Of a stretch of DNA of 64,000 bases, positions 105-24,053 are shown in pieces. The stretch comes from a virus. Location: positions 1 to 64,000 of IMG/VR virus record IMGVR_UViG_3300044609_000960. The stretch is one strand, 5' to 3'. Within the stretch, counting starts at the first letter, position 1. The number at the start of each line of letters is the position of its first letter. The translations under genes were made by a program, and so were the position numbers. The notes under the pieces were generated by a model that worked only from the letters and a program-made list of their open reading frames with translations, searched no databases and was not told where the DNA came from.

Positions 105-610
105 TTAAAAATTGTCACAATTCCCCGAAAGTGGGACATGCTTTTGTGACGGAGCGACCTTAGTACCCTTAAACTGATGACTTTAGCTCATAATCTTTAA
201 ACGAGTTATGTTTGGATTCCCTAATATTATATACCGCCTGTTTAGACCTGTCAACCCCCTGCCGGGCCAGTTTGGCCATTGTCACAATATTGTCACATTT
301 GGCTAGGTTTTGTTGTCACACAAATTGTCACAAAAGTTGGCTTTTATTGACATGGGGGGCCCCCTCACATTTTGGCTAAAAAGTGCACAAAACTGCATCG
401 TTTTGCTAAAAAATGTGAAGGGGGGGTGGCTAACAAAAGTGTGATGGGGGGTAAAAATGGCCTATTTTTGTTAGGGGCAAGTGTGAGATCCCTTGCTATG
501 TCTAGGTCGTATTTCGCTGGGAAATCCTGCTCGATAAGTGCAAGTGTGATGGGGGACCCCCCCTCTTCACATTCTTTTTTAGCTTAAAATGTGAGGGGGG
601 GTATAGGGCT
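105..610. repeat. Iteron-like repeat region (TTGTCACA and TGTGA+G-run motifs), candidate replication origin or packaging/terminal region
   Basis: TTGTCACA at ~112, 279, 290, 313, 325 and inverted at ~144; TGTGA usually followed by a G5-7 run at ~414, 440, 482, 545, 590 and inverted at ~360, ~557; no credible ORF. Confidence 0.6.
226..254 (-). promoter_or_regulatory. Consensus sigma70-type promoter TTGACA-17-TATAAT firing leftward
   Basis: Reverse complement reads TTGACA ggtctaaacaggcggta TATAAT. Confidence 0.8.
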
Positions 611-733
611 TTTTCGATGGACAGCTTAATAATTTTTTTCCTTTGGTGAGGTGGACAATTGCAAAATTTTTAATTGCAAAACTATTACCAACTAACCTGT
701 AACAGTTTAAAGGTCTGAAGAATTAGAACTCAT

Positions 734-15415: not shown

Positions 15416-15492
15416 GCCACTATAGCTCAGCTGGATAGAGCAACGGTTTTGTAAACCGTAGGTCGTCGGTTCAAGTCCGACTTGTGGCTCCA
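15416..15492 (+). tRNA. tRNA-Thr(TGT), CCA encoded
   Basis: Cloverleaf; anticodon loop TT-TGT-AA; T-loop TTCAAGT. Confidence 0.92.
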
Positions 15493-15566
15493 CGGGATAT
15501 AGCGCAGCTTGGTAGCGCGGATGCTTTGGGAGCATTAGGTCGCGGGTTCGAATCCTGCTATCCCGA
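15493..15566 (+). tRNA. tRNA-Pro(TGG)
   Basis: CGGGATA/TATCCCG acceptor; loop TT-TGG-GA. Confidence 0.93.
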
Positions 15567-15570
15567 TATT

Positions 15571-16245
15571 ATGGAACTAAATAGACGTTACTTTGGTAAA
15601 ACTATTGTTTTTTGCCTTCCAGGATCTCATTATTCTGGGAGGTTTTTAGTACGATTTACTCAACTCCTACTAGATTGTAGACAAATTGGAATAAATACTA
15701 TCATCTCCCAAGACTATAGTTCCATGGTTAACTACGCTAGGTGTAAAGTAATGGGTGCAAATGTCACCCGTGGCAAGTACCAAGTTCCATTTGGAGGGGC
15801 AATAGAATATGACTACATGATGTGGATTGATAGTGATATTGCATTCACCTCAGCGGATTTTTTTAAACTCCTTGAGCAGGACAGAGATATAGTCTCTGGT
15901 TGGTATATTCAACCCGGAGGATTAACTCCTATTGTTGAAAAAATGGATGATGAATATTTCAAATCTCATGGATATTTTGAATTTATCTCCGAAGATGCCA
16001 TGAGTAAACGTAATTCGCTATTTAAAGCTGATTATGTTGGTTTTGGTTGGGTGCTAATAAAACGAGGCGTGTTTGAATCCATCTCCTATCCATGGTTTGC
16101 GCCAAAACTTATAAAAATAGGTGAAGATTTAGAAGATGTATGTTCAGAAGATGTCTCCTTCTGCATCGATGCAAAAAATGCTGGTTATGACATATGGGTT
16201 GATCCAAAAATCCGAGTGGGCCATGAAAAGGTATTGACCATCTGA
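15571..16245 (+). CDS. GT-A fold glycosyltransferase (cyanophage type)
   Basis: YDYMMWIDSDI (DxD), VGFGWVLIKRGVFE, SEDVSFC, VGHEK; true start lies after tRNA-Pro. Confidence 0.85.
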   Translation: MELNRRYFGKTIVFCLPGSHYSGRFLVRFTQLLLDCRQIGINTIISQDYSSMVNYARCKVMGANVTRGKYQVPFGGAIEYDYMMWIDSDIAFTSADFFKLLEQDRDIVSGWYIQPGGLTPIVEKMDDEYFKSHGYFEFISEDAMSKRNSLFKADYVGFGWVLIKRGVFESISYPWFAPKLIKIGEDLEDVCSEDVSFCIDAKNAGYDIWVDPKIRVGHEKVLTI

Positions 16246-16262
16246 GGATTTTCTGATAGAAT
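16234..16262 (+). promoter_or_regulatory. sigma70-type promoter for tRNA-Arg/Gly
   Basis: TTGACC-17-TAGAAT with extended TG. Confidence 0.65.
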
Positions 16263-16274
16263 ATAGAGGTCAAT

Positions 16275-16348
16275 GTCTCAATAGCTCAGATGGATAGAGC
16301 ATCTGCCTTCTAAGCAGTTTGTCGGGGGTTCAAGTCCCTCTTGAGACG
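16275..16348 (+). tRNA. tRNA-Arg(TCT)
   Basis: GTCTCAA/TTGAGAC acceptor; loop CT-TCT-AA. Confidence 0.93.
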
Positions 16349-16352
16349 CCTC

Positions 16353-16424
16353 GCGGGGTTAGTTCAGCGGTAGAACGCTATCCTTCCAAGTTAGATGTCG
16401 TCGGTTCGATTCCGATACCCCGCT
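16353..16424 (+). tRNA. tRNA-Gly(TCC)
   Basis: GCGGGGT/ACCCCGC acceptor; loop CT-TCC-AA. Confidence 0.92.
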
Positions 16425-16479
16425 TGAGAAGAGACAATAAGTCCCTCTTCTCTTTTGTTCTTACAATTATTAAGAAAGT

Positions 16480-17337
16480 ATGAAAAAACTCGTCTCAGCT
16501 ATCGGTGCACTCGGCATAATCGCCCCTGGTGTTGCCACTGCAGCTCCTCAAGGTCAATTCCCCGATGTCCAGCCGACCAACTGGGCGTATCAGGCAATCA
16601 TGAACCTCAAGGATAAGTATGGTTGCGCTGTTGGATTCCCCAATGGTACTTTCCAGCCCGGCGAACCTACCACTCGTGCTCAACTTGCTGCTCTGACTAA
16701 TGCTTGTCTCGATCGCATCGAGGAATATGCAGATGCAAAAGATGCTGCACTTGCTCAGGCTCTCCGTGCCCAATTCGCTGGCGTTGATACTCGTGTAACT
16801 AAACTTGAGCGTATTGCTGCTCAAAAAGCCCAAGGTGTTAACAACTACCTAGGTGCTGGCGTTCTTCTGAATAAGCAAGGTATTGATGGCAATGGTTATA
16901 CTGAAAACCGTACTATCTCTGGTGGTACTGTCCAAGGTCGTTACGCTGTAAAGACCTTTAATAACCAAAATGCTGTTTCTGTCCGTCCTTATGCTAATTT
17001 CGTTGGCACTCCTGCCGGTGAGATTGGAGCAGCAGGTGGTGGTCTTCTCTCTTATGACTGGAGTATCGCCCGTAAAGCTGGCGTAAGCGCCGCTAATATC
17101 TACACCGGTGTCGGTTACCAAGTTCCTTTTGTGAATAATACCGCAGCCAATTTCCAATCTGCTATTGGTGAAAAAGGCCAAGTAATTCTTGCCTTGGGCA
17201 TCGAAGGTCGTCTGACCAATTCCTTGGTTGGTTTTGCTGATCTCAAGTTCCCTACCACCAATGCTTCTAATAGCTACGGTGCAACCAATGGTACCTATTC
17301 CCCTGTATTCACTACTGGTCTCGGTTTCAAATTCTGA
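16480..17337 (+). CDS. SLH-domain outer-membrane beta-barrel protein (cyanobacterial porin-like)
   Basis: Signal peptide; FPDVQPTNWAYQAI...YGC..GFPNGTF...TRAQLAA..NACLD; C-terminal GLGFKF. Confidence 0.85.
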   Translation: MKKLVSAIGALGIIAPGVATAAPQGQFPDVQPTNWAYQAIMNLKDKYGCAVGFPNGTFQPGEPTTRAQLAALTNACLDRIEEYADAKDAALAQALRAQFAGVDTRVTKLERIAAQKAQGVNNYLGAGVLLNKQGIDGNGYTENRTISGGTVQGRYAVKTFNNQNAVSVRPYANFVGTPAGEIGAAGGGLLSYDWSIARKAGVSAANIYTGVGYQVPFVNNTAANFQSAIGEKGQVILALGIEGRLTNSLVGFADLKFPTTNASNSYGATNGTYSPVFTTGLGFKF

Positions 17338-17555
17338 TGACCGTTACCACGAATGAATTTGGCCAACAGAATATGTTTGCCAAAGAACCTGAAATGTACA
17401 TCGATCCTATCATTACAGAACAAATGGAAAAAGAAACTTACCAGACTCATAACGAACGTGCAGAGATGCTTAATGGCCGATTTGCCATGCTTGGTATCGT
17501 TGCAGCATTTGGCGCCTATGCCTTAACCGGGCAGATCATTCCTGGCATTTGGTGA
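17337..17555 (+). CDS. hli: High-light-inducible protein
   Basis: AEMLNGRFAMLG...LTGQIIPGIW. Confidence 0.95.
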   Translation: MTVTTNEFGQQNMFAKEPEMYIDPIITEQMEKETYQTHNERAEMLNGRFAMLGIVAAFGAYALTGQIIPGIW

Positions 17556-17641
17556 TGGGTGAAGTTATCTTCACTATAACGAGCATCAGTTTCCTGGTGC
17601 TCCTTTTTCACTCCGTGAATGAATTGGCTAAGACCTACTAA
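17555..17641 (+). CDS. 28-aa hydrophobic peptide coupled to hli
   Basis: TGATG overlap; MGEVIFTITSISFLVLLFHSVNELAKTY. Confidence 0.6.
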   Translation: MGEVIFTITSISFLVLLFHSVNELAKTY

Positions 17642-17657
17642 TTGAGTAGGTTTTTCT

Positions 17658-17741
17658 GGAGAGGTGGCCGAGTGGTTGATGGCAGCAGTCTTGAAAACTG
17701 CCGTGTGATGAGCACCGTGGGTTCGAATCCCACCCTCTCCG
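17658..17741 (+). tRNA. tRNA-Ser(TGA)
   Basis: GGAGAGG/CCTCTCC acceptor, long variable arm, loop CT-TGA-AA. Confidence 0.93.
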
Positions 17742-17805
17742 TTAAACATAAAAGGTTGTTTGTTTAAAGATATATTCGAGAATAGTTGTATCAAGAGATA
17801 CTCAA

Positions 17806-18222
17806 ATGGCAAGTCCGTTCCGTGGCTCAGACGTAAGACTGGCCGTATTAGAAGAAAAACTTGATGTATACGAGGAACTGTCCAGAGAAATGCTTTCAAA
17901 ACTCGAAGCGGCAGTAGATAAGATTTCGGAAGCAAATCAGAATGTAGCCAAGATTCTTGTCCGTCATGAGGAACGTCTAGATCAAACCATCCAATCTGAC
18001 ACAGCAATCATGAAACTTTTGGATGAAATTAAAATCAAACATCAAACAGATATTTCTCATACAGAAACAGAAATAAGTAACCTAAAAACAAGATTTGATG
18101 AGTTATCTAAATTTCGTTGGATATTCGCCGGTGTTCTTTTAGTCGTTGGGGTTATTGCCGGTCAAGTAAACGTTCTTGAGTCCATGTTCCCCTCTGTTCC
18201 GTCGATGCATAACACTAGATGA
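17806..18222 (+). CDS. Coiled-coil protein with C-terminal transmembrane helix
   Basis: RLAVLEEKL...LVRHEERL; FRWIFAGVLLVVGVI; GTTTAAAG upstream. Confidence 0.75.
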   Translation: MASPFRGSDVRLAVLEEKLDVYEELSREMLSKLEAAVDKISEANQNVAKILVRHEERLDQTIQSDTAIMKLLDEIKIKHQTDISHTETEISNLKTRFDELSKFRWIFAGVLLVVGVIAGQVNVLESMFPSVPSMHNTR

Positions 18223-18306
18223 GAGGGAAAAGGATCGGGTTCATATATCACAAAACTTGGAAAACTGGTATAATACAATGTGTATCAGTTGACTTCCCAG
18301 GTCATT

Positions 18307-18471
18307 ATGCTATTTTTATTGTCAAAGACTCCACTGGCGCAGTTATCCCCGTGGATTCACGAGATGCTTCATACATATAGAGTTGGAATTACGGGGGTCT
18401 TAAGTTTCCTCTTGATATTTGTTCCGATCTATGGTATAATGGTCATACATCGGGATTCCAATTCAGATTGA
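18307..18471 (+). CDS. Small membrane protein
   Basis: Hydrophobic C-terminal half; TGGTATAAT upstream. Confidence 0.5.
   Translation: MLFLLSKTPLAQLSPWIHEMLHTYRVGITGVLSFLLIFVPIYGIMVIHRDSNSD
18412..18440 (+). promoter_or_regulatory. Promoter of the main tRNA/ncRNA array
   Basis: TTGATA-17-TATAAT with extended TG. Confidence 0.7.
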
Positions 18472-18475
18472 TTTT

Positions 18476-18547
18476 GGGACTGTCGCCTATTGGTTAAGGC
18501 CCACTGCTTATAACGGTGTGAACGGAGTTCAATTCTCCGCAGTCCTA
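18476..18547 (+). tRNA. tRNA-Ile(TAT)
   Basis: GGGACTG/CAGTCCT acceptor; CACTG-CTTATAA-CGGTG anticodon arm. Confidence 0.88.
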
Positions 18548-18570
18548 TTGGGCACTATAGGCCCATATAT

Positions 18571-18642
18571 TCCACAATAGCTCAGCGGTAGAGTCGGTGA
18601 CTGTTAATCACTTGGTCCCTGGTTCGAATCCAGGTTGTGGAG
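18571..18642 (+). tRNA. tRNA-Asn(GTT)
   Basis: TCCACAA/TTGTGGA acceptor; loop CT-GTT-AA. Confidence 0.93.
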
Positions 18643-18677
18643 TTGATAGGGTTGGAAACATCCGATTCTATCAAATT

Positions 18678-18777
18678 GGTTCTGGGTGGAATTCCCAGCA
18701 GTTCCATTTGGGACTGTCCTTTGTAGGTTCGATACCCACATCTTCCTTATGGGAGATAAGAACGGCTATTGGAAACC
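18678..18777 (+). ncRNA. Structured RNA: two tandem circularly permuted T-arm + acceptor-stem minihelices
   Basis: CTGGG-TGGAATT-CCCAG + CAGTTCC-ATTT-GGGACTG; GTAGG-TTCGATA-CCCAC + ATCTTCC-TTAT-GGGAGAT; GGTT/AACC ends. Confidence 0.7.
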
Positions 18778-18849
18778 TCTTATTCACTATCCTCTAATAT
18801 AGTGAAAAACTAAGTGCCTAGTGGCTCTATGGGTACTCATGGAGCCCCT

Positions 18850-18922
18850 TCTCCTGTTAGTCTATTGGTAAGGACGGGTGGACAACACACATAGATACTG
18901 GGTTCGATTCCCAGCCAGGGGA
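18850..18922 (+). ncRNA. tRNA-like RNA with a non-canonical anticodon arm
   Basis: Acceptor TCTCCTG/CAGGGGA, D-arm GTC-TATTGGTAAG-GAC, T-arm CTGGG-TTCGATT-CCCAG; anticodon arm only GTG-GACAACA-CAC, no U33. Confidence 0.7.
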
Positions 18923-18925
18923 AAG

Positions 18926-18980
18926 TGATAGAGGGTAAGCCTCTGCTATATCCTTGAGGTATATTACGCTTACTCCATCA
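18926..18980 (+). ncRNA. Rod-like hairpin RNA in the tRNA array
   Basis: TGAT..GGGTAAGC/GCTTACTC.ATCA outer stem; TATATC/GGTATA inner stem. Confidence 0.5.
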
Positions 18981-18986
18981 AGCAAC

Positions 18987-19035
18987 ACCCCCTAAGCCTA
19001 TCTCGGGACGCCGAATGATGCTCAAACAAGGGGGT
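18987..19035 (+). ncRNA. Rod-like hairpin RNA before tRNA-Met
   Basis: ACCCCCT/AGGGGGT, AGC/GCT, ATC/GAT, TCGG-GACG-CCGA. Confidence 0.45.
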
Positions 19036-19040
19036 CACTT

Positions 19041-19116
19041 GCGGATTTAGCAATCTGGTGAATGCAGCGAACTCATAATTCGCCTTAGGCGTGTTCAATC
19101 CACGCAATCCGCACCA
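19041..19116 (+). tRNA. tRNA-Met(CAT), elongator or Ile2 type, CCA encoded
   Basis: GCGGATT/AATCCGC acceptor; GCGAA-CTCATAA-TTCGC. Confidence 0.9.
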
Positions 19117-19117
19117 G

Positions 19118-19200
19118 GTCTGAGTGGCGGAATTGGTAGACGCCCAGGTTTTAGGTACCTGTGTCCTTGCGACGTGGAGGTTCAAGTCCTCTCTCAGACA
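19118..19200 (+). tRNA. tRNA-Leu(TAG)
   Basis: GTCTGAG/CTCAGAC acceptor, long variable arm, loop TT-TAG-GT. Confidence 0.92.
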
Positions 19201-19233
19201 TTTAAGGTTAAAGATCCTTATTGAAAGAAAATT

Positions 19234-19542
19234 ATGCTTTCTACAGAAACCCGACTGAGGCTAGAGGCAATTGCCGAAAAAATCGCCTTACACAAAGAGG
19301 TCTCTTTTGAAGAGATGCAATGGGCGCAGAAGTGGGCAGATCATAATCGCTCAGCAGCTTCGATACTCAATAAGGCCCGTAGAGTATCAATCAATGGAGT
19401 TCCTGAGAAGGACTCTCTTGATGAGTTTATGAACGATTTAGATCTTGGCGATCCTGATCCTTCTAACCATCTCATCGGACCACAAGATCCAGACACCTTG
19501 GCAAAATGGTTTAAAGCTCCACCATGGCTGAAGAACGATTGA
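19234..19542 (+). CDS. Conserved cyanophage hypothetical protein
   Basis: MLST..RLRLE.I...WA.K...LDLGDPDPSNH pattern. Confidence 0.8.
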   Translation: MLSTETRLRLEAIAEKIALHKEVSFEEMQWAQKWADHNRSAASILNKARRVSINGVPEKDSLDEFMNDLDLGDPDPSNHLIGPQDPDTLAKWFKAPPWLKND

Positions 19543-19792
19543 TTACCGAGGATGAGTTTAGAGAGTTGATGGAGATGGCCCATCGACTCAAGATACGGGA
19601 ACTTTTTGAAGAGCCATCTACCTACGAAGATGAATGCGAGGATTGACAAATGGCTCTTCTTTCACGTCAAGATTATGAAATGGTAATCGAAGCTCTAGAG
19701 TTTTATCTAGAAGCACATTCAACAGATTGCCCAGATTTCGACCATTTAGGGTATAATAACCTAGTTAATTGGTTAAAGATCTGTGTTTCCAA

Positions 19793-19864
19793 GGGCGATT
19801 AACTCAGCGGTAGAGTGCCTCCTTTACACGGAGATGGTCACTGGTTCGAATCCAGTATCGCCCA
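19793..19864 (+). tRNA. tRNA-Val(TAC)
   Basis: GGGCGAT/ATCGCCC acceptor; loop TT-TAC-AC. Confidence 0.93.
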
Positions 19865-20094: not shown

Positions 20095-20153
20095 ACTTCT
20101 CTTGACATGACCCCCATCCCTGGAGTATGATTGCTCTAGGGATTTTTTTTGTC

Positions 20154-20678
20154 ATGAACATCTTCTTCCTTGATCACGATCCTAAGACTGCAGCGGAGTA
20201 CCATTGCGATAAGCATGTCAACAAGATGATCATCGAGCATCTTCAAATGATGAGTGTTGCTCTTGCCCATCATGGATTGAATCCTGCTAGGAAGAAAGAC
20301 GGAGAGTTCTATAAAGTCCGCGGGTTTAAGAATCATCCATGCACTCTTTGGGTGAAGGAGTCAGTTTGTAACTTTATGTGGACTTACAAACTAACTTACC
20401 ACCTCTGCGAGGAATTTGAGAAGCGATATGGAAAACCTCACTCGGGGGTTAATAGTCTTGAGTCTATTGATCTACTCGAGGTAAATAAGTTATATCCAAA
20501 TAATGGCTATACTGAGCCTGCTCAAGCAATGCCAGACTACTGCAAAGTTGATGGTTTCCCGGTTAAAGCTTATCGTAATTATTACAACTGGGCCAAGTGG
20601 CGATTTGCTACTTGGAAGACCCAAGAACCTGATTGGTGGGCACCTGGATGTTGCTTAGAGGCTAAAGATGAATACTGA
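20154..20678 (+). CDS. Pyrimidine-dimer DNA glycosylase/DenV-like family protein
   Basis: MNIFFLD.DP..AA..HCDKHV.KM..E..QM, NHPCTLW, QAMPD, AYRNYY. Confidence 0.8.
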   Translation: MNIFFLDHDPKTAAEYHCDKHVNKMIIEHLQMMSVALAHHGLNPARKKDGEFYKVRGFKNHPCTLWVKESVCNFMWTYKLTYHLCEEFEKRYGKPHSGVNSLESIDLLEVNKLYPNNGYTEPAQAMPDYCKVDGFPVKAYRNYYNWAKWRFATWKTQEPDWWAPGCCLEAKDEY

Positions 20679-21315
20679 AAAATATTGCCTCATTGGTGAT
20701 TTGCATGGTCGGATTGATACTCTTGATAAGATTTTAGATAAATCTGAAGGGTATAAATATATCTTCATGGGAGATACAATCCACCACAAACCATTTTTTA
20801 AACGTTCTAAAAGAACTTCTCCGCTTAGAATGCTAAGCAAAATTAAGAAGTTAGTAAAACAAAACCGAGCAACTTTAATCCTTGGTAATAACGAAAACTA
20901 TATTCTTAAAAATCTTCTCCTCCCAGAAGAAGATATCCTGCAAAAAGAAGTTAGGTACACTTTGGGATGCTTACGAGAACTATCTCTTGATGACAGACTC
21001 GATTACCTCCACTGGTTGACTACGTCCCCATTGACCTATGAATTCGAGTCATACGGAAAGATTTATCGTTGCGCCCATGCCTACTACAATCCTAACTACA
21101 CTCCAGAGACCCGAAATAATGTACTCACTGGCATAGGATATCCTTGGTTTAAGACTGATAAGCTCGAAGATCATATTAAACTCGATGCGGAGTATTTCTT
21201 TGGCCATTATGGCTATCCGTACTTCCGCAAAAACCTAAAAATCATCGACGCAACTAACTTCGAAGGGGTGGGGGTATATTACACGGATCGTGAAGAATTC
21301 TTAATCTATTACTAA
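20668..21315 (+). CDS. Calcineurin-like metallophosphoesterase
   Basis: GDLHG, GD, GNNE (for GNHE), AHA, FGHY. Confidence 0.85.
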   Translation: MNTEKYCLIGDLHGRIDTLDKILDKSEGYKYIFMGDTIHHKPFFKRSKRTSPLRMLSKIKKLVKQNRATLILGNNENYILKNLLLPEEDILQKEVRYTLGCLRELSLDDRLDYLHWLTTSPLTYEFESYGKIYRCAHAYYNPNYTPETRNNVLTGIGYPWFKTDKLEDHIKLDAEYFFGHYGYPYFRKNLKIIDATNFEGVGVYYTDREEFLIYY

Positions 21316-21359: not shown

Positions 21360-24053
21360 ATGTCAAAGTTGAATTCCCTTGGATATGCTGTTCTTTCCGA
21401 TGTGATGAACTCGAGGGTGTTTGGTGAAGGAACAACTCAGACAGAGCCTGATGAAAAGCATCTCAGAAACGTCAAGCAGGAGATGGAGAAGTTTGGCGTA
21501 GAGTTTCCTGTAAAAAATCCCAGCAATTTCTTCATCGAGGACTTTGCTCTACCTGAACTAAAAGCAAACAACATCAAGGATCATTTTGATGCTATCTCCA
21601 AAGAAGTCTGTGGGGATAAAGTTGAATTGATGAAGGATTTTGCTTATACCGAAATCGGTGAAGCACCGGATAAAACTAAATTTTTTCTGTATGCTGGTTG
21701 GGTCAAGTATCCTTTCAATGGCGAACCAGAAGTTGTCGATGGAATCGAAGAGAATATTGCAGTCTATGACTGTGAGACCTTTGTAAAGGGTAGTGACTTT
21801 GGCCATCCCATCTTGGCCACTGCGGTTACTCCTAAGGCATATTATATTTGGATGCATCCCGCGTTCGTAAATAGTAAGACAGAATATAAGCCAATGCTTG
21901 TGCCCATTGGAGGCAGGGATAAGATTCTAGTTGCTCATAACGTAGCATTTGACCGAGCTCGGACTCAAGAAGCCTATGTCCTTGGCAAAACAAATTCTTG
22001 GTTTGATACGATGTCAGCTCATATTAATGTGAGTGGATTGGCCTCTGGTCAACGTTGGTGGTATTTGCAAAAAGCGGCCAAGAAAGCTACCTATAAAGCC
22101 GATCCTATCTGGGCCGATAAGGGATCTATGAATAATCTTATCGATTGTTATAACTTCCATTGCCAGCCAATGGTCCCTCTCGAGCAAGAAGATAAAAAGA
22201 TCCGAAATATCTTCGTAGATGCCAATTCCATGGAGGAATTTGTTCCCGAACGAGATGATCTTATTGCCTATGCTCTTAACGACGTAAAAATCACCTTTGA
22301 ACTATATTCCATTCTATTCCTCAAATACCTTCAAAATAATCCGTCATTAACGACTCTTGCTGGCCATTTTGGTATCTCTTCTGCTCACCTTCCGGTAGTG
22401 AGTGATTGGGAGAAGTGGTTTGATGATTGTGAGAAGCAATGGGAAACTTCGCTCTCCCGCCAAGAAGAGATCCTTTGCAAAATGGCCGAGGAGGTGTATC
22501 AGTCTTGGAATGAAGGAGAGATTACTGATGAAGATATTAAAGCAGATCCATGGCTCTCCCAACTTGACTGGGAAGCAAACTTTAAACTTACAAAGGCTGG
22601 GAAACCCAGCTCGAAGTGGTACGGAGTGCCTAAGTGGGTGAGGAGCGTATCTGCTAAAGACCTCATCGATGGCAAACCTATAATCCAAGACATCTCAACC
22701 AAAAACCGCCTATCCCATCTCCTCCTCCGTCTCAAGTGGAATGATCAACCTCTGAAGTTTTTCACTGATAAAGGTTGGTGCTTCATGGACGAAGATCTTG
22801 GGGACTATGTACGTATCCCTCATACTGATGGGGAAGGAGTTAATGTCGGAGGAGTATTAACCAAAGATTATGCTGAGGATTTCGAATCTGGGCAATTAAG
22901 TTCCGATCTTCCTGAGGCAAAAGAACTCATCAAACTTGCAATTAATGTGGCATACTGGACTTCGGTAAGGAGTCGTGTGAGGGAACAACTCGTAGAGGAG
23001 ATCAAAACGCCACAGGGAAATAAGTTTAAGATGATTGTTCCCGCCGCAGTTCCTCATAACACTTCGACCAATCGCGCCGGGGAGAATCTTTGGTTGACTG
23101 TTCCTGATCCGAAATATGACAAGATCGGTAGTGAAATCAAGACTCGTGTCCAAGCACCTGAGGGCTATGTATTTGTCCAATCCGACTTCGACGCCCAAGA
23201 GGCAGTAGTTGCGTCGATCTTTGCCGACTCATATCACAAGATTGCCGGAAGCACACAATTTTCCCACTCAATTCTCGCTGGGTCTAAAGATGATGGGACG
23301 GACATGCATTCCATGACTGCAAAAGCTATTGGGATCTCTAGGGCTATTGCAAAGGGATGTAATTATGGCATGTTGTACGGGTGTGGGGCTAAAACTCTTG
23401 CAAATACAATCCGCAAGGGAAACAAAAATATCCCAATGAAACAAGCAGTTGAGATGGGAAATAAACTCATTAAAATTAAGAAGGGTACTAAGGCCTCTAG
23501 TGTCTCTCAGACACTTATCGGTGGTTCTGATTCCTATGCTTACAATGAAATGGCACGTATTGCCAATCTTCCCTCTCCCATTAATCCTCTAAGTGGTACA
23601 AAGATGTCCACGGCCTTCCGCCCGACATCTGTTGGCACTGATTTTTGGACCATGCGTAACAACTGGTGTATTCAATCCACTGGTAGTGCTATGCTCCATG
23701 CCTTCATGACTGCCATGGAATGGTTGATTGCAGAGTATGAACTGGACGCTGAGTTCTGTATGTCAGTTCATGACAGTATCCTGTATCTCTGTCCAGAGTC
23801 CCAGGCTGAGGGGGTTGCAGCTTTGTTCCAAGTAGCTCATGCTTGGTGCTGGGCTTGGATGAGGTATAACTACGGGATCTATGAACTTCCAGTAGCAAAT
23901 GCCTGGCTCTCTTCTATTGAGATCGATAAAATCTTCCGTAAAGCTGCCACTGCGAACACTAAGACCGTTTCTCAGCAAAAATCCGAACTTGATGGTGAAT
24001 CTCGAACCATCCAAGATCTCATCCCAATTTTCAACTCTATGTTTACAAAATGA
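21360..24053 (+). CDS. Family A DNA polymerase, mitochondrial Pol-gamma-like
   Basis: Exo DCET, HNVAFDRAR, YALND; IPHTDGEGVNVG, IGSEIKTRVQAP, motif A DFDAQE, GTDMHSMTA, motif B ISRAIAKGCNYGMLYG, NWCIQS, motif C VHDS. Confidence 0.93.
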   Translation: MSKLNSLGYAVLSDVMNSRVFGEGTTQTEPDEKHLRNVKQEMEKFGVEFPVKNPSNFFIEDFALPELKANNIKDHFDAISKEVCGDKVELMKDFAYTEIGEAPDKTKFFLYAGWVKYPFNGEPEVVDGIEENIAVYDCETFVKGSDFGHPILATAVTPKAYYIWMHPAFVNSKTEYKPMLVPIGGRDKILVAHNVAFDRARTQEAYVLGKTNSWFDTMSAHINVSGLASGQRWWYLQKAAKKATYKADPIWADKGSMNNLIDCYNFHCQPMVPLEQEDKKIRNIFVDANSMEEFVPERDDLIAYALNDVKITFELYSILFLKYLQNNPSLTTLAGHFGISSAHLPVVSDWEKWFDDCEKQWETSLSRQEEILCKMAEEVYQSWNEGEITDEDIKADPWLSQLDWEANFKLTKAGKPSSKWYGVPKWVRSVSAKDLIDGKPIIQDISTKNRLSHLLLRLKWNDQPLKFFTDKGWCFMDEDLGDYVRIPHTDGEGVNVGGVLTKDYAEDFESGQLSSDLPEAKELIKLAINVAYWTSVRSRVREQLVEEIKTPQGNKFKMIVPAAVPHNTSTNRAGENLWLTVPDPKYDKIGSEIKTRVQAPEGYVFVQSDFDAQEAVVASIFADSYHKIAGSTQFSHSILAGSKDDGTDMHSMTAKAIGISRAIAKGCNYGMLYGCGAKTLANTIRKGNKNIPMKQAVEMGNKLIKIKKGTKASSVSQTLIGGSDSYAYNEMARIANLPSPINPLSGTKMSTAFRPTSVGTDFWTMRNNWCIQSTGSAMLHAFMTAMEWLIAEYELDAEFCMSVHDSILYLCPESQAEGVAALFQVAHAWCWAWMRYNYGIYELPVANAWLSSIEIDKIFRKAATANTKTVSQQKSELDGESRTIQDLIPIFNSMFTK

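What the first reader, a model, noticed from the sequence alone, without database searches (positions are those of the whole stretch)
18678..18777. Tandem circularly permuted tRNA minihelices, both with the alanine G3-U70 pair, inside the tRNA array
Seen: the same architecture twice in a row, a 5-bp stem with 7-nt T-like loop followed directly by a 7-bp hairpin with a 4-nt loop. Unit 1 is CTGGG-TGGAATT-CCCAG / CAGTTCC-ATTT-GGGACTG; unit 2 is GTAGG-TTCGATA-CCCAC / ATCTTCC-TTAT-GGGAGAT. This is the 5+7 T-arm/acceptor coaxial helix of tRNA, but with the acceptor 3' strand before the 5' strand, so the end is sealed by a loop. In tRNA numbering both have G1-C72, G2-C71, G3-U70, and unit 1 also has A73. 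A D-loop-like GGCTATTGGAAACC follows. Unit 1's GGGACTG-TC matches the start of the nearby tRNA-Ile. Established: G3-U70 plus A73 is the AlaRS identity set; T/acceptor/D permutation occurs in bacterial YrlA Y RNAs and two-piece tmRNA genes. Inference: an anticodon-less double tRNA mimic, either a sealed decoy for tRNA-targeting defence toxins or a precursor opened by RNase P/Z into alanylatable ends.
Basis: partly seen in the sequence, partly recalled or inferred. Interest (0 to 1): 0.85.

Follow-up and report, generated by a model that had tools for sequence, protein, structure and literature searches.

The report
Sealed double tRNA mimic in cyanophage
Among its tRNA genes this cyanobacterial virus carries a conserved RNA of about 100 bases, built from two tRNA 'top halves' whose amino-acid ends are closed by loops. 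It is a real tRNA look-alike, absent from Rfam and found in roughly a hundred uncultured phage contigs, but it is probably not an alanine acceptor, and what it binds is unknown.

Summary

They are not chance or debris. The same ~100-nt element occurs in about 110 viral and metagenome contig stretches (about 60 sequence variants), co-oriented with the tRNAs in 69 of 71 loci. In those 69 it lies among tRNA genes; two divergent copies stand alone. In 42 distinct sequences, 11 of 28 base pairs show compensatory changes (0 of 500 shuffles reach this).

No Rfam family matches it, and no GenBank phage in the collection holds it. A 99%-identical relative has lost exactly this cassette, so it is accessory.

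Its topology matches a YrlA-type tRNA mimic (T arm, sealed acceptor, D-like strand), but with a second T/acceptor-like unit and no Ro60 gene.

The alanine reading is weak. G3-U70 is usual but is replaced by A-U or G-C in several members. A73 occurs only in this window. Cap loops vary and include UUCG and GCAA tetraloops.

Best reading: a stable, sealed tRNA decoy cut out of the tRNA operon transcript; its partner is unknown. This scan had already found the family on other genomes, with the same conclusion.

The parts
18678..18777 (+). The whole element: closing stem P1, four hairpins and a D-like strand
   Evidence: RNAalifold consensus on 34 variants. Covariance model R1 scores the window copy at 132 bits. 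Frequent G-U pairs, which would be A-C on the other strand, fix the strand as +.
18674..18780 (+). Indel cassette: 107 nt present here, replaced by 2 nt in the 99%-identical relative L038
   Evidence: the flanks are identical. One search shows the block tRNA-Asn, hairpin, element, hairpin is contiguous in other phages, so L038 lost the element.
18678..18681 (+). P1, 5' strand
   Evidence: Pairs with 18774-18777. Three of the 4 pairs show compensatory changes in homologs, and all cells are paired.
18682..18698 (+). Hairpin A: 5-bp stem with a 7-nt T-loop-like loop (unit 1 'T arm')
   Evidence: The stem is invariant in all variants, including the most divergent, and the loop is nearly so. It most resembles the T arm of phage tRNA-Ile(UAU).
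18699..18716 (+). Hairpin B: 7-bp stem with a 4-nt cap (unit 1 'acceptor'), G-U at the third pair
   Evidence: Compensatory and wobble changes occur. The stem is 6 bp with a UUCG cap in L097 and L120. The third pair is G-C in L126.
18717..18722 (+). Conserved 6-nt linker between the two units
   Evidence: Identical in 55 of 63 variants.
18723..18739 (+). Hairpin C: T arm with a canonical T-loop (unit 2)
   Evidence: Three of 5 pairs covary. The window copy has an A-C mismatch shared with only one other variant.
18740..18757 (+). Hairpin D: 7-bp sealed acceptor-like stem (unit 2), G-U at the third pair
   Evidence: Three pairs covary and the stem is 7 bp in all members. The G-U is kept in the most divergent members L123 and L126 but is A-U or G-C in others. 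Caps include GCAA.
18758..18773 (+). Conserved single strand with a D-loop-like GG
   Evidence: Nearly invariant in sequence. It resembles the D arm of the phage tRNA-Ile.
18774..18777 (+). P1, 3' strand
   Evidence: See P1, 5' strand.
18644..18673 (+). Flanking hairpin 1, between tRNA-Asn and the element; not part of the element
   Evidence: Fold. It precedes the element in many but not all contexts.
18783..18806 (+). Flanking hairpin 2; not part of the element
   Evidence: Fold. It is retained in L038 and follows the element in L068, L073 and L091.

Best explanation
Identity (about 0.9). The window holds a self-contained ~100-nt structured non-coding RNA gene assembled from tRNA gene parts. 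A short stem (P1) closes a junction that carries two coaxial 12-bp 'minihelices'. Each is a 5-bp T-arm-like hairpin stacked on a 7-bp acceptor-like hairpin whose end is capped by a small loop. A conserved D-loop-like strand follows. Unit 2 plus the D-like strand and P1 has the topology of a tRNA opened at the anticodon and sealed at the acceptor end, as in YrlA. Unit 1 sits where the variable arm would be.

Mechanism (inferred, about 0.4). The RNA is co-transcribed with the tRNA array. RNase P and 3' processing of the neighbouring tRNAs release it, since the next tRNA starts 4-7 nt downstream in many phages. The sealed ends and tRNA-like fold would keep it stable. It then acts as a non-decoding tRNA look-alike that occupies a protein which recognises the acceptor/T-arm 'top half' or elbow of tRNA. 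The most plausible partner is a host tRNA-targeting defence effector or a tRNA-handling enzyme. It is an accessory, exchangeable module, not a core gene.
For: Real and conserved:
- A 22-mer from the element hits 34 viral contigs, a second pattern hits 63, and a third finds divergent members.
- 36 further metagenome stretches match the model.
- In all there are about 110 instances and about 60 variants.

Structure:
- RNAalifold recovers P1 plus the four hairpins.
- In 42 distinct sequences 99.4% of cells are paired, against 39-54% when partners are slid.
- 11 of 28 pairs have double-sided changes; 0 of 500 shuffles reach this.
- Loop indels of 1-2 nt rule out coding.

Module behaviour:
- There are at least 5 different left and right flanks.
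- The element is co-oriented with the tRNAs in 69 of 71 loci.
- Upstream lies tRNA-Asn at 33-34 nt or tRNA-Gly at 23 nt. Downstream, a tRNA or tRNA-like RNA lies at 4-7 nt in many loci.
- In L123 and L126 it stands alone. In L126 a sigma-70-like promoter ends 7 nt before P1.

Accessory status: a clean loss in the 99%-identical L038.

Sealed ends: the caps are the most variable positions and include UUCG and GCAA tetraloops.

Sequence-specific recognition: the hairpin A stem, both 7-nt loops, the linker and the D-like strand are nearly invariant.

Context: the same arrays carry orphan abiF antitoxin-type RNA above Rfam's threshold in 8 of 15 loci. The abiF motif RNA neutralises an AbiF toxin (bioRxiv 10.1101/2025.04.15.648962).

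Precedent for the topology: YrlA (PMC4201824).
Against: - No expression, end-mapping or binding data exist, and no cultured phage in the GenBank collection carries the element.
- No partner protein is identified. No gene co-occurs consistently.
- Ro60/TROVE, RtcB and DUF2828 are absent from this genome and from a complete 213-kb carrier.
- A decoy for anticodon nucleases is impossible, because there is no anticodon arm of normal form.
- The near-constant G-U in both acceptor-like stems, and the constant 7-bp length of hairpin D stacked on a canonical T arm, are what RNase P and AlaRS would need. An opened form is therefore not excluded.
- Loss in L038 without other change shows the element is dispensable, at least in some settings.
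Confidence: 0.4

Rival explanations
1. Opened, two-piece tRNA mimic. RNase P cuts 5' of the first G of hairpin D (and perhaps B), the 3' side is trimmed and receives CCA, and the G3-U70 end may be charged by AlaRS.
For: - Hairpin D is 7 bp in every member and stacks directly on a 5-bp T arm with a canonical T-loop, giving the 12-bp ruler used by RNase P.
- The base before its first G is U in 48 of 63 variants.
- G-U at the third pair is kept in 39 of 42 distinct sequences, including the most divergent members for unit 2.
- M. smegmatis YrlA, with a 7-bp sealed stem, is cut by RNase P and gains CCA in vivo (PMC4201824).
- Functional-looking phage two-piece tmRNAs have caps of only 5-7 nt.
Against: - The discriminator position is not conserved: A only in this window, G or U elsewhere for unit 1, and U, G, A or C for unit 2. 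All five phage tmRNAs examined keep A73.
- G-U is replaced by A-U or G-C in three distinct sequences at each unit. Such changes abolish alanine acceptance in tRNA-Ala (established knowledge: Hou and Schimmel 1988; McClain and Foss 1988).
- Unit 1 shortens to 6 bp with a UUCG cap, and unit 2 has a GCAA cap in L123. These are very stable closed ends.
- No CCA is encoded.
Confidence: 0.12
2. A cis-acting element of the tRNA operon. Its tRNA-like shape recruits RNase P, RNase Z or RNase E, or blocks exonucleases, so that neighbouring tRNAs and small RNAs are cut out or stabilised. It has no function in trans.
For: Among the members scoring above 106 bits it is always inside tRNA arrays, in the same orientation, and often 4-7 nt from the next tRNA. 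It is mixed and matched with other spacer hairpins.
Against: - The divergent copies in L123 and L126 stand alone among protein genes, one with its own promoter-like site.
- Sequence-invariant loops and linker are more than a processing signal needs.
- Most tRNA junctions in these arrays manage without it.
Confidence: 0.2
3. Neutral or selfish debris: leftovers of tRNA-gene junctions that spread by recombination between arrays, with no function of their own.
For: - Unit 1 matches the ends of phage tRNA-Ile(UAU): 9 of 9 nt at the 5' end and 20 of 25 at the 3' end.
- Unit 2's strands match the tRNA-Ser(GCU) 3' end and the tRNA-Val 5' end.
- An ordinary junction of two adjacent tRNA genes in L120 has the same look and scores 32 bits with the model.
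- The element is dispensable in L038.
Against: - Compensatory changes in four helices occur across members whose element G+C ranges from 0.41 to 0.61.
- Unpaired segments are nearly invariant.
- About 110 instances keep the full length, with no truncated forms seen.
Confidence: 0.07
4. A decayed remnant or miniature of a phage two-piece (permuted) tmRNA.
For: - Related cyanophages carry real permuted tmRNAs inside their tRNA arrays, with the same core of T arm plus 7-bp sealed acceptor with G3-U70.
- Rfam's tmRNA_permuted model touches unit 1.
Against: - That match is 14.5 bits (E = 1.4) against a threshold of 47.
- The genome-wide search of this virus finds no cyano_tmRNA (RF01851) match anywhere, and its best tmRNA_permuted (RF04321) match is 22.5 bits at 520-710, away from the element.
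- There is no tag reading frame, no pseudoknots and no conserved A73.
- My model of the element does not recognise real tmRNAs (at most 11 bits).
- Unit 1 is closer to tRNA-Ile ends than to the tmRNA core (20 of 25 against 16 of 25 by my own count).
Confidence: 0.03

Closest known systems
YrlA, the bacterial and mycobacteriophage Y RNA with a tRNA-like domain (Chen et al. 2014, PMC4201824)
   Same: The order of parts is the same: closing stem, variable-arm-position hairpin, T arm, acceptor-like stem sealed by a loop, D-like part, closing stem. Both are non-decoding tRNA mimics of about 100 nt. One member with a 7-bp sealed stem is opened by RNase P.
   Different: - There is no Ro60 (TROVE) gene in this phage or in a complete carrier genome.
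- There is no long Ro-binding stem, and the conserved YrlA helix motif is absent from the sequence.
- No Rfam match occurs at E up to 5-10.
- The D part is a single strand, not a stem-loop.
- The variable-arm position holds a second complete T/acceptor-like unit.
tRNA-like domain of two-piece (permuted) tmRNA: Rfam cyano_tmRNA RF01851 and tmRNA_permuted RF04321. Phage copies are known (PMC9004378).
   Same: A T arm is followed directly by the acceptor 3' strand, a short intervening loop and the acceptor 5' strand, with G3-U70. It lies inside cyanophage tRNA arrays.
   Different: There is no mRNA-like part, no tag and no pseudoknots. A73 is not conserved. Scores are far below threshold. The unit is doubled. 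The caps can be stable tetraloops.
Phage T4 stable RNAs C and D (species 1 and 2) in the T4 tRNA gene cluster
   Same: Small stable non-tRNA RNAs encoded among phage tRNA genes and released by tRNA processing; function unknown.
   Different: No sequence or structural relation was tested here, and the T4 RNAs are not in Rfam. The resemblance is of setting only.
Circularly permuted tRNA genes of the red alga Cyanidioschyzon merolae (Soma et al. 2007; my own knowledge)
   Same: The 3' part of the tRNA comes before the 5' part, joined across the acceptor end by a short linker.
   Different: Those genes encode complete decoding tRNAs, matured through a circular intermediate made by the eukaryotic or archaeal splicing machinery. 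Here there is no usable anticodon arm. When the element is re-permuted in silico, ARAGORN calls a tRNA in only 5 of 44 variants, and not in this window's copy.
Alanine minihelix: acceptor/T-arm helix with G3-U70 charged by AlaRS (Francklyn and Schimmel 1989; my own knowledge)
   Same: A 12-bp acceptor/T coaxial helix with G-U at the third pair.
   Different: The end is closed, no CCA is encoded, the discriminator is variable, and the G-U is not invariant.

Membership tests
YrlA (Y RNA-like A) | Encoded next to a Ro60 (Rsr, TROVE) gene | tested here: not met
   No TROVE match in this 159-kb genome or in five carrier contigs, including a complete 213-kb genome.
YrlA (Y RNA-like A) | Long terminal stem with the conserved Ro-binding helix motif (GNCGAA-type, PMC4201824) | tested here: not met
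   P1 is only 4-6 bp. The sequence of 18678-18777 contains no CGAA.
YrlA (Y RNA-like A) | tRNA-like domain in the order V, T, sealed acceptor-like stem, D | tested here: met
   Consensus structure compared with the description in PMC4201824. The D part here is a strand, not a stem-loop.
YrlA (Y RNA-like A) | Match to the Rfam covariance model | tested here: not met
   No YrlA row among matches up to E = 10 on 18400-19300 or up to E = 5 on six homologous loci.
Two-piece (permuted) tmRNA | Match to RF01851 or RF04321 at the gathering score | tested here: not met
   14.5 bits against 47. The genome-wide search found no RF01851 match, and the best RF04321 match was 22.5 bits elsewhere. Positive controls in L032 and L048-L051 score 74-143 bits.
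Two-piece (permuted) tmRNA | Tag reading frame with resume codon, and pseudoknots | tested here: not met
   ARAGORN finds no tmRNA in the genome or in 43 related loci except L032. The element is 100 nt and fully taken up by five helices.
Two-piece (permuted) tmRNA | G3-U70 with conserved A73 | tested here: not met
   G-U is usual but A73 is unique to this window. All five phage tmRNAs keep A73.
tRNA (RF00005) | Cloverleaf with anticodon arm; match to the tRNA model | tested here: not met
   No tRNA match on 18678-18777 at E up to 10. ARAGORN is silent. The re-permuted form is called a tRNA in 5 of 44 variants only.
AlaRS substrate (tRNA-Ala identity set) | G3-U70 pair | tested here: inconclusive
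   Present in both units here and in 39 of 42 distinct sequences at each unit. It is replaced by A-U (2) or G-C (1) at each, and by A-U (4) or G-C (1) for unit 2 in the larger set.
AlaRS substrate (tRNA-Ala identity set) | A73 discriminator and a free single-stranded CCA 3' end | tested here: not met
   The ends are closed by 3-5-nt caps, no CCA is encoded, and the first cap base is variable. Whether processing creates an end cannot be tested with these tools.
manA / wcaG cyanophage RNA motifs | Match to RF01745 or RF01761 | tested here: not met
   No such match in the window. wcaG is found elsewhere, in L068 at 104 bits, so the search works.

The most novel reading that the evidence does not exclude
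The element is an RNA-only counter-defence. It would be a sealed two-headed tRNA decoy that titrates a host immune effector which recognises the acceptor/T-arm half or the elbow of tRNA. It would be carried, together with orphan abiF antitoxin-type RNA, in a tRNA array that doubles as an island of anti-defence RNAs. Its gain and loss between near-identical phages (this window against L038) would then reflect host defence repertoires.
Probability: 0.25. Interest if true: 0.85.

Novelty: new variant of a known kind. Interest (0 to 1): 0.6.

Why it matters
Phage tRNA arrays are now seen as tools against host defences that cut tRNAs. This element shows that the arrays of cyanophages also carry conserved RNAs that imitate tRNA shape without decoding.

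A new tRNA-mimic family with sealed ends, two heads and no Ro60 partner widens the known forms of tRNA mimicry. It offers a concrete bait for finding the protein it binds. A natural presence/absence pair also exists (this phage and L038), and such a pair could be compared directly on hosts.

The element also illustrates how new structured RNAs can be built from the junctions of adjacent tRNA genes.

Tried and rejected
- **Chance hairpins:** rejected by conservation and covariation, although geometry alone is unremarkable.
- **Degenerate tRNA-Ala:** related phages have tRNA-Ala next to tRNA-Asn, but the element does not align to it.
- **Alternative closing helix (GTTCT with AGAAC):** this was used by the single-sequence fold and by earlier first-stage notes. 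Its two outer pairs are broken in L120, L121, L123 and L126, where GGTT/AACC-type P1 covaries perfectly.
- **Complete circularly permuted class II tRNA:** the re-permuted sequence is called a tRNA in 5 of 44 variants only. By sequence, unit 1 resembles tRNA-Ile T/acceptor ends, not an anticodon or variable arm.
- **tmRNA remnant:** rejected.
- **Link to Ro60, RtcB or DUF2828:** absent from this genome and from a complete carrier. A DUF2828-DUF7788 gene lies next to the copy in L118 only. A sequence search of that protein against PDB found nothing.
- **Host origin:** two 22-mers found nothing real in 185,579 prokaryote genomes. One Bacillus hit lies in a coding region and does not match the model.
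- **GenBank phages:** no match to the element.
- **Exact 21-23-mers from this window's private variants:** no hits.
- **Loop-linker pseudoknot (hairpin A loop with the 6-nt linker):** no covariation.

Full report
**Setting.** The window is the first 64 kb of a 159-kb IMG/VR virus record with inverted terminal repeats. It carries a polymerase-gamma-like DNA polymerase at 21360-24053, and its tRNA region gives blastn matches to S-TIM5-type and T4-like cyanophages. A tRNA array runs from 15416 to 19864 on the + strand, with 11 ARAGORN calls and no tRNA-Ala. The finding lies between tRNA-Asn (18570-18643) and a tRNA-like RNA (18850-18923).

**Observation.** The sequence is as described.
- Unit 1 (18682-18716) is a 5-bp stem with a 7-nt loop, followed with no spacer by a 7-bp stem with a 4-nt cap.
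- Unit 2 (18723-18757) repeats this geometry with a canonical T-loop. In this window its 5-bp stem has one A-C mismatch.
- Both 7-bp stems have G-U at the third pair from the cap.
- Geometry alone does not prove anything. A loose single-unit pattern occurs about ten times in shuffled copies of the genome, and the fold of the 100 nt has a z-score of only -1.5.

**A discrete cassette.** Of 43 loci recovered through the polymerase, one (L038, polymerase 99% identical) is identical on both sides but has 2 nt in place of window 18674-18780. The larger block of tRNA-Asn, hairpin, element and hairpin (18568-18808) is contiguous at about 87% identity in several other phage contigs. L038 therefore lost the element. 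It is dispensable, at least in some settings.

**A conserved family.** No GenBank phage in the collection matches the element, and exact words from this window's private variants found nothing.
- A 22-mer from the 3' part hit 34 IMG/VR contigs, a 21-mer from the middle hit 63, and a degenerate pattern on hairpin A hit 101 stretches. Those 101 include divergent members.
- A metagenome scan added 36 more matches to the model.
- In total I count about 110 instances and about 60 distinct variants.
- The element lies in at least five different left and right contexts.
- In 69 of 71 loci it is co-oriented with the surrounding tRNA genes.
- The usual upstream neighbour is tRNA-Asn at 33-34 nt or tRNA-Gly at 23 nt. 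In many loci the next tRNA or tRNA-like RNA starts 4-7 nt downstream.
- The carrier contigs tested look like fragments of ~200-kb T4-like cyanophages. The module is therefore shared between T4-like and TIM5-like lineages.

**Structure.**
- A covariance model built on this (R1) finds members down to 81 bits, with element G+C from 0.41 to 0.61.
- On 42 distinct sequences, 99.4% of cells pair, against 39-54% when partners are slid.
- 11 of 28 pairs show double-sided changes, and no shuffle in 500 reaches any of the five measures. That alignment was fitted to the model, which favours the structure. The independent MAFFT alignment gives the same picture with less divergence.
- P1 and hairpins B, C and D covary. 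The stem of hairpin A never varies.
- An alternative closing helix is broken in the divergent members and is rejected.
- Frequent G-U pairs fix the transcribed strand as +.
- The caps of hairpins B and D are the most variable positions.
- The two 7-nt loops, the 6-nt linker and the 16-nt D-like strand are nearly invariant. This points to tertiary contacts or sequence-specific binding.

**Origin (inference).**
- Unit 1 is closest to the ends of the phage tRNA-Ile(UAU): the first 9 nt are identical, and 20 of 25 nt of the T arm plus 3' strand match, with a compensatory pair.
- Unit 2's 3' strand equals that of phage tRNA-Ser(GCU), and its 5' strand equals that of tRNA-Val.
- The two acceptor stems differ at position 3, which would give the G-U.
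- An ordinary junction between two adjacent tRNA genes in L120 has the same appearance and scores 32 bits with R1.

The element thus looks like tRNA-gene junctions that were recruited into a new RNA.

**Comparison with known families.**
- **Rfam.** Rfam 15 has no match at the gathering score. At E up to 10 only tmRNA_permuted touches unit 1, at 14.5 bits against a threshold of 47. Six homologous loci gave nothing on the element either.
- **Two-piece tmRNA.** Real two-piece tmRNAs do occur in tRNA arrays of cyanophages. They are found in L032, a polymerase relative at about 71% identity, and in S-SSM7, Sf-FS3, S-CAM1 and S-CRM01 (74-143 bits). Their core is a T arm plus a 7-bp acceptor closed by A73 and 4-6 nt, with G3-U70. 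Phage two-piece tmRNAs are already known (PMC9004378). This genome has none, and R1 does not recognise them.
- **YrlA.** The closest topology is YrlA: a variable-arm-position hairpin, a T arm, a sealed acceptor-like stem and a D part, all closed by a stem (PMC4201824). The element lacks the Ro60 neighbour, the Ro-binding stem and the model match. It works like a YrlA-type tRNA mimic but is not a member of that family.

**The alanine idea.**
- G-U at the third pair is present in 39 of 42 distinct sequences in each unit. In unit 2 it survives in the most divergent members, where neighbouring pairs have changed. This suggests the wobble is more than inheritance.
- It is nonetheless replaced by A-U or G-C in three distinct sequences at each unit. 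Unit 1 has G-C in L126.
- The discriminator is A only in this window; the majority is G.
- Unit 1 shortens to 6 bp with a UUCG cap in L097 and L120, and unit 2 has a GCAA cap in L123.
- The five phage tmRNAs, which must be alanylated, all keep A73.

A conserved role as an alanine acceptor is therefore unlikely. Opening by RNase P is not excluded, since M. smegmatis YrlA with a 7-bp sealed stem is cut and receives CCA.

**Mechanism.**
- Shown: the element is a conserved, structured, accessory RNA module on the tRNA strand.
- Inferred: it is released from the operon transcript by processing of the neighbouring tRNAs. In the stand-alone copy of L126 it would be transcribed from its own promoter-like site, which ends 7 nt before P1.
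- Inferred: it is stable because its ends are paired and its helices capped.
- Inferred: it binds a protein that reads the top half or elbow of tRNA.

The arrays also carry orphan abiF antitoxin-type RNA (8 of 15 loci). This RNA was reported in S-CREM1 (PMC9964418), and an abiF-motif RNA neutralises an AbiF toxin. That makes a counter-defence role plausible but not shown. No consistent protein neighbour was found. The two stand-alone copies lie near orthologous small metallophosphoesterases. One copy lies next to a DUF2828-DUF7788 gene, but these genes are absent from this genome.

**Earlier notes.** This scan had already met the same family on other genomes. Follow-up agents there called it a sealed, rearranged tRNA look-alike, with YrlA or the T4 stable RNAs as the closest known. 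My results agree and add:
- the clean presence/absence pair;
- the family-wide test of G3-U70 and A73;
- the tetraloop caps;
- the stand-alone copies;
- the comparison with phage two-piece tmRNAs;
- the rejection of the GTTCT/AGAAC closing helix used in two first-stage notes.

**Verdict.** This is a new variant of a known kind (a tRNA-mimic RNA). Its function is unknown, and the sealed decoy is the best guess.

Noticed in passing
window 18850-18923 (+): A tRNA-shaped RNA that ARAGORN calls a 74-nt 'tRNA-Leu(caa)', although a true tRNA-Leu is class II. Rfam scores it at 28 bits, just under the threshold of 29. It is conserved in S-RIM32, S-RIM8, S-PM2, DSL-LC03 and many contigs, and is unannotated where I viewed the record (S-RIM32, S-RIM8). 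In relatives it is called His(atg) or Leu(caa). It often lies 4-5 nt after the element, so it is probably a second non-decoding tRNA mimic.
   Followed up: partly
window 18927-18981 (+): A ~55-nt conserved module, 94-98% identical in S-RIM32 and S-RIM8, placed before rather than after the tRNA-like RNA in those phages. It has no Rfam match, and Rfam does not call it manA here.
   Followed up: no
window 18988-19035 (+); also L055, L060, L063, L078, L079, L098, L117, L121, L086: abiF antitoxin-type RNA (RF03085). The window copy scores 30.4 bits, below the threshold of 37, and has an 18-nt insertion. Copies above threshold (44-54 bits) lie in the tRNA arrays of many carrier phages. This RNA was reported once, for S-CREM1 (PMC9964418). 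An orphan antitoxin RNA in phage tRNA arrays suggests counter-defence.
   Followed up: partly
L032 787-1039; L048 1161-1463 (S-SSM7); L049 1148-1437 (Sf-FS3); L050 1200-1468 (S-CAM1); L051 1188-1409 (S-CRM01): Complete two-piece (permuted) cyanobacterial-type tmRNA genes inside or beside phage tRNA arrays. They are unannotated in the records, or covered by a 'hypothetical protein' CDS (SSSM7_025; S-CAM1 and S-CAM3 isolates). The intervening loop is only 4-6 nt after A73. Phage two-piece tmRNAs as such are known (PMC9004378).
   Followed up: partly
window 18553-19045: In most polymerase relatives, tRNA-Ile is followed directly by tRNA-Met. The whole ~490-nt block here (tRNA-Asn, hairpins, the element, the tRNA-like RNA, and the other small modules) is an insertion relative to them. 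tRNA-Asn sits elsewhere in L005 and L008, so the array is reshuffled module by module.
   Followed up: partly
L123 6489-7052 (-) and L126 7928-8461 (+): The two divergent stand-alone copies of the element lie next to orthologous small calcineurin-like phosphoesterases (55% identical), in different relative order. The window has an unrelated metallophosphatase at 20668-21312.
   Followed up: partly
L118 1760-3295 (-): A 512-aa DUF2828-DUF7788 protein lies directly upstream of a divergent copy of the element. The family is absent from the window's genome and from other carriers. I did not test whether it resembles Ro60.
   Followed up: partly
window 520-710 (+): A weak match to tmRNA_permuted (22.5 bits, threshold 47) in a region with long G and C runs. 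It is probably spurious.
   Followed up: no
L009 1815-1908, L011 3275-3367, L013 1447-1539: ARAGORN calls a 93-nt 'tRNA-Ile(tat)' with a long extra arm in some polymerase relatives. This is an unusual class II-like tRNA with a UAU anticodon.
   Followed up: no
window 20127-20678 (+): A pyrimidine-dimer DNA glycosylase (Pyr_excise) homologue lies just after the tRNA array, as in other cyanophages.
   Followed up: no
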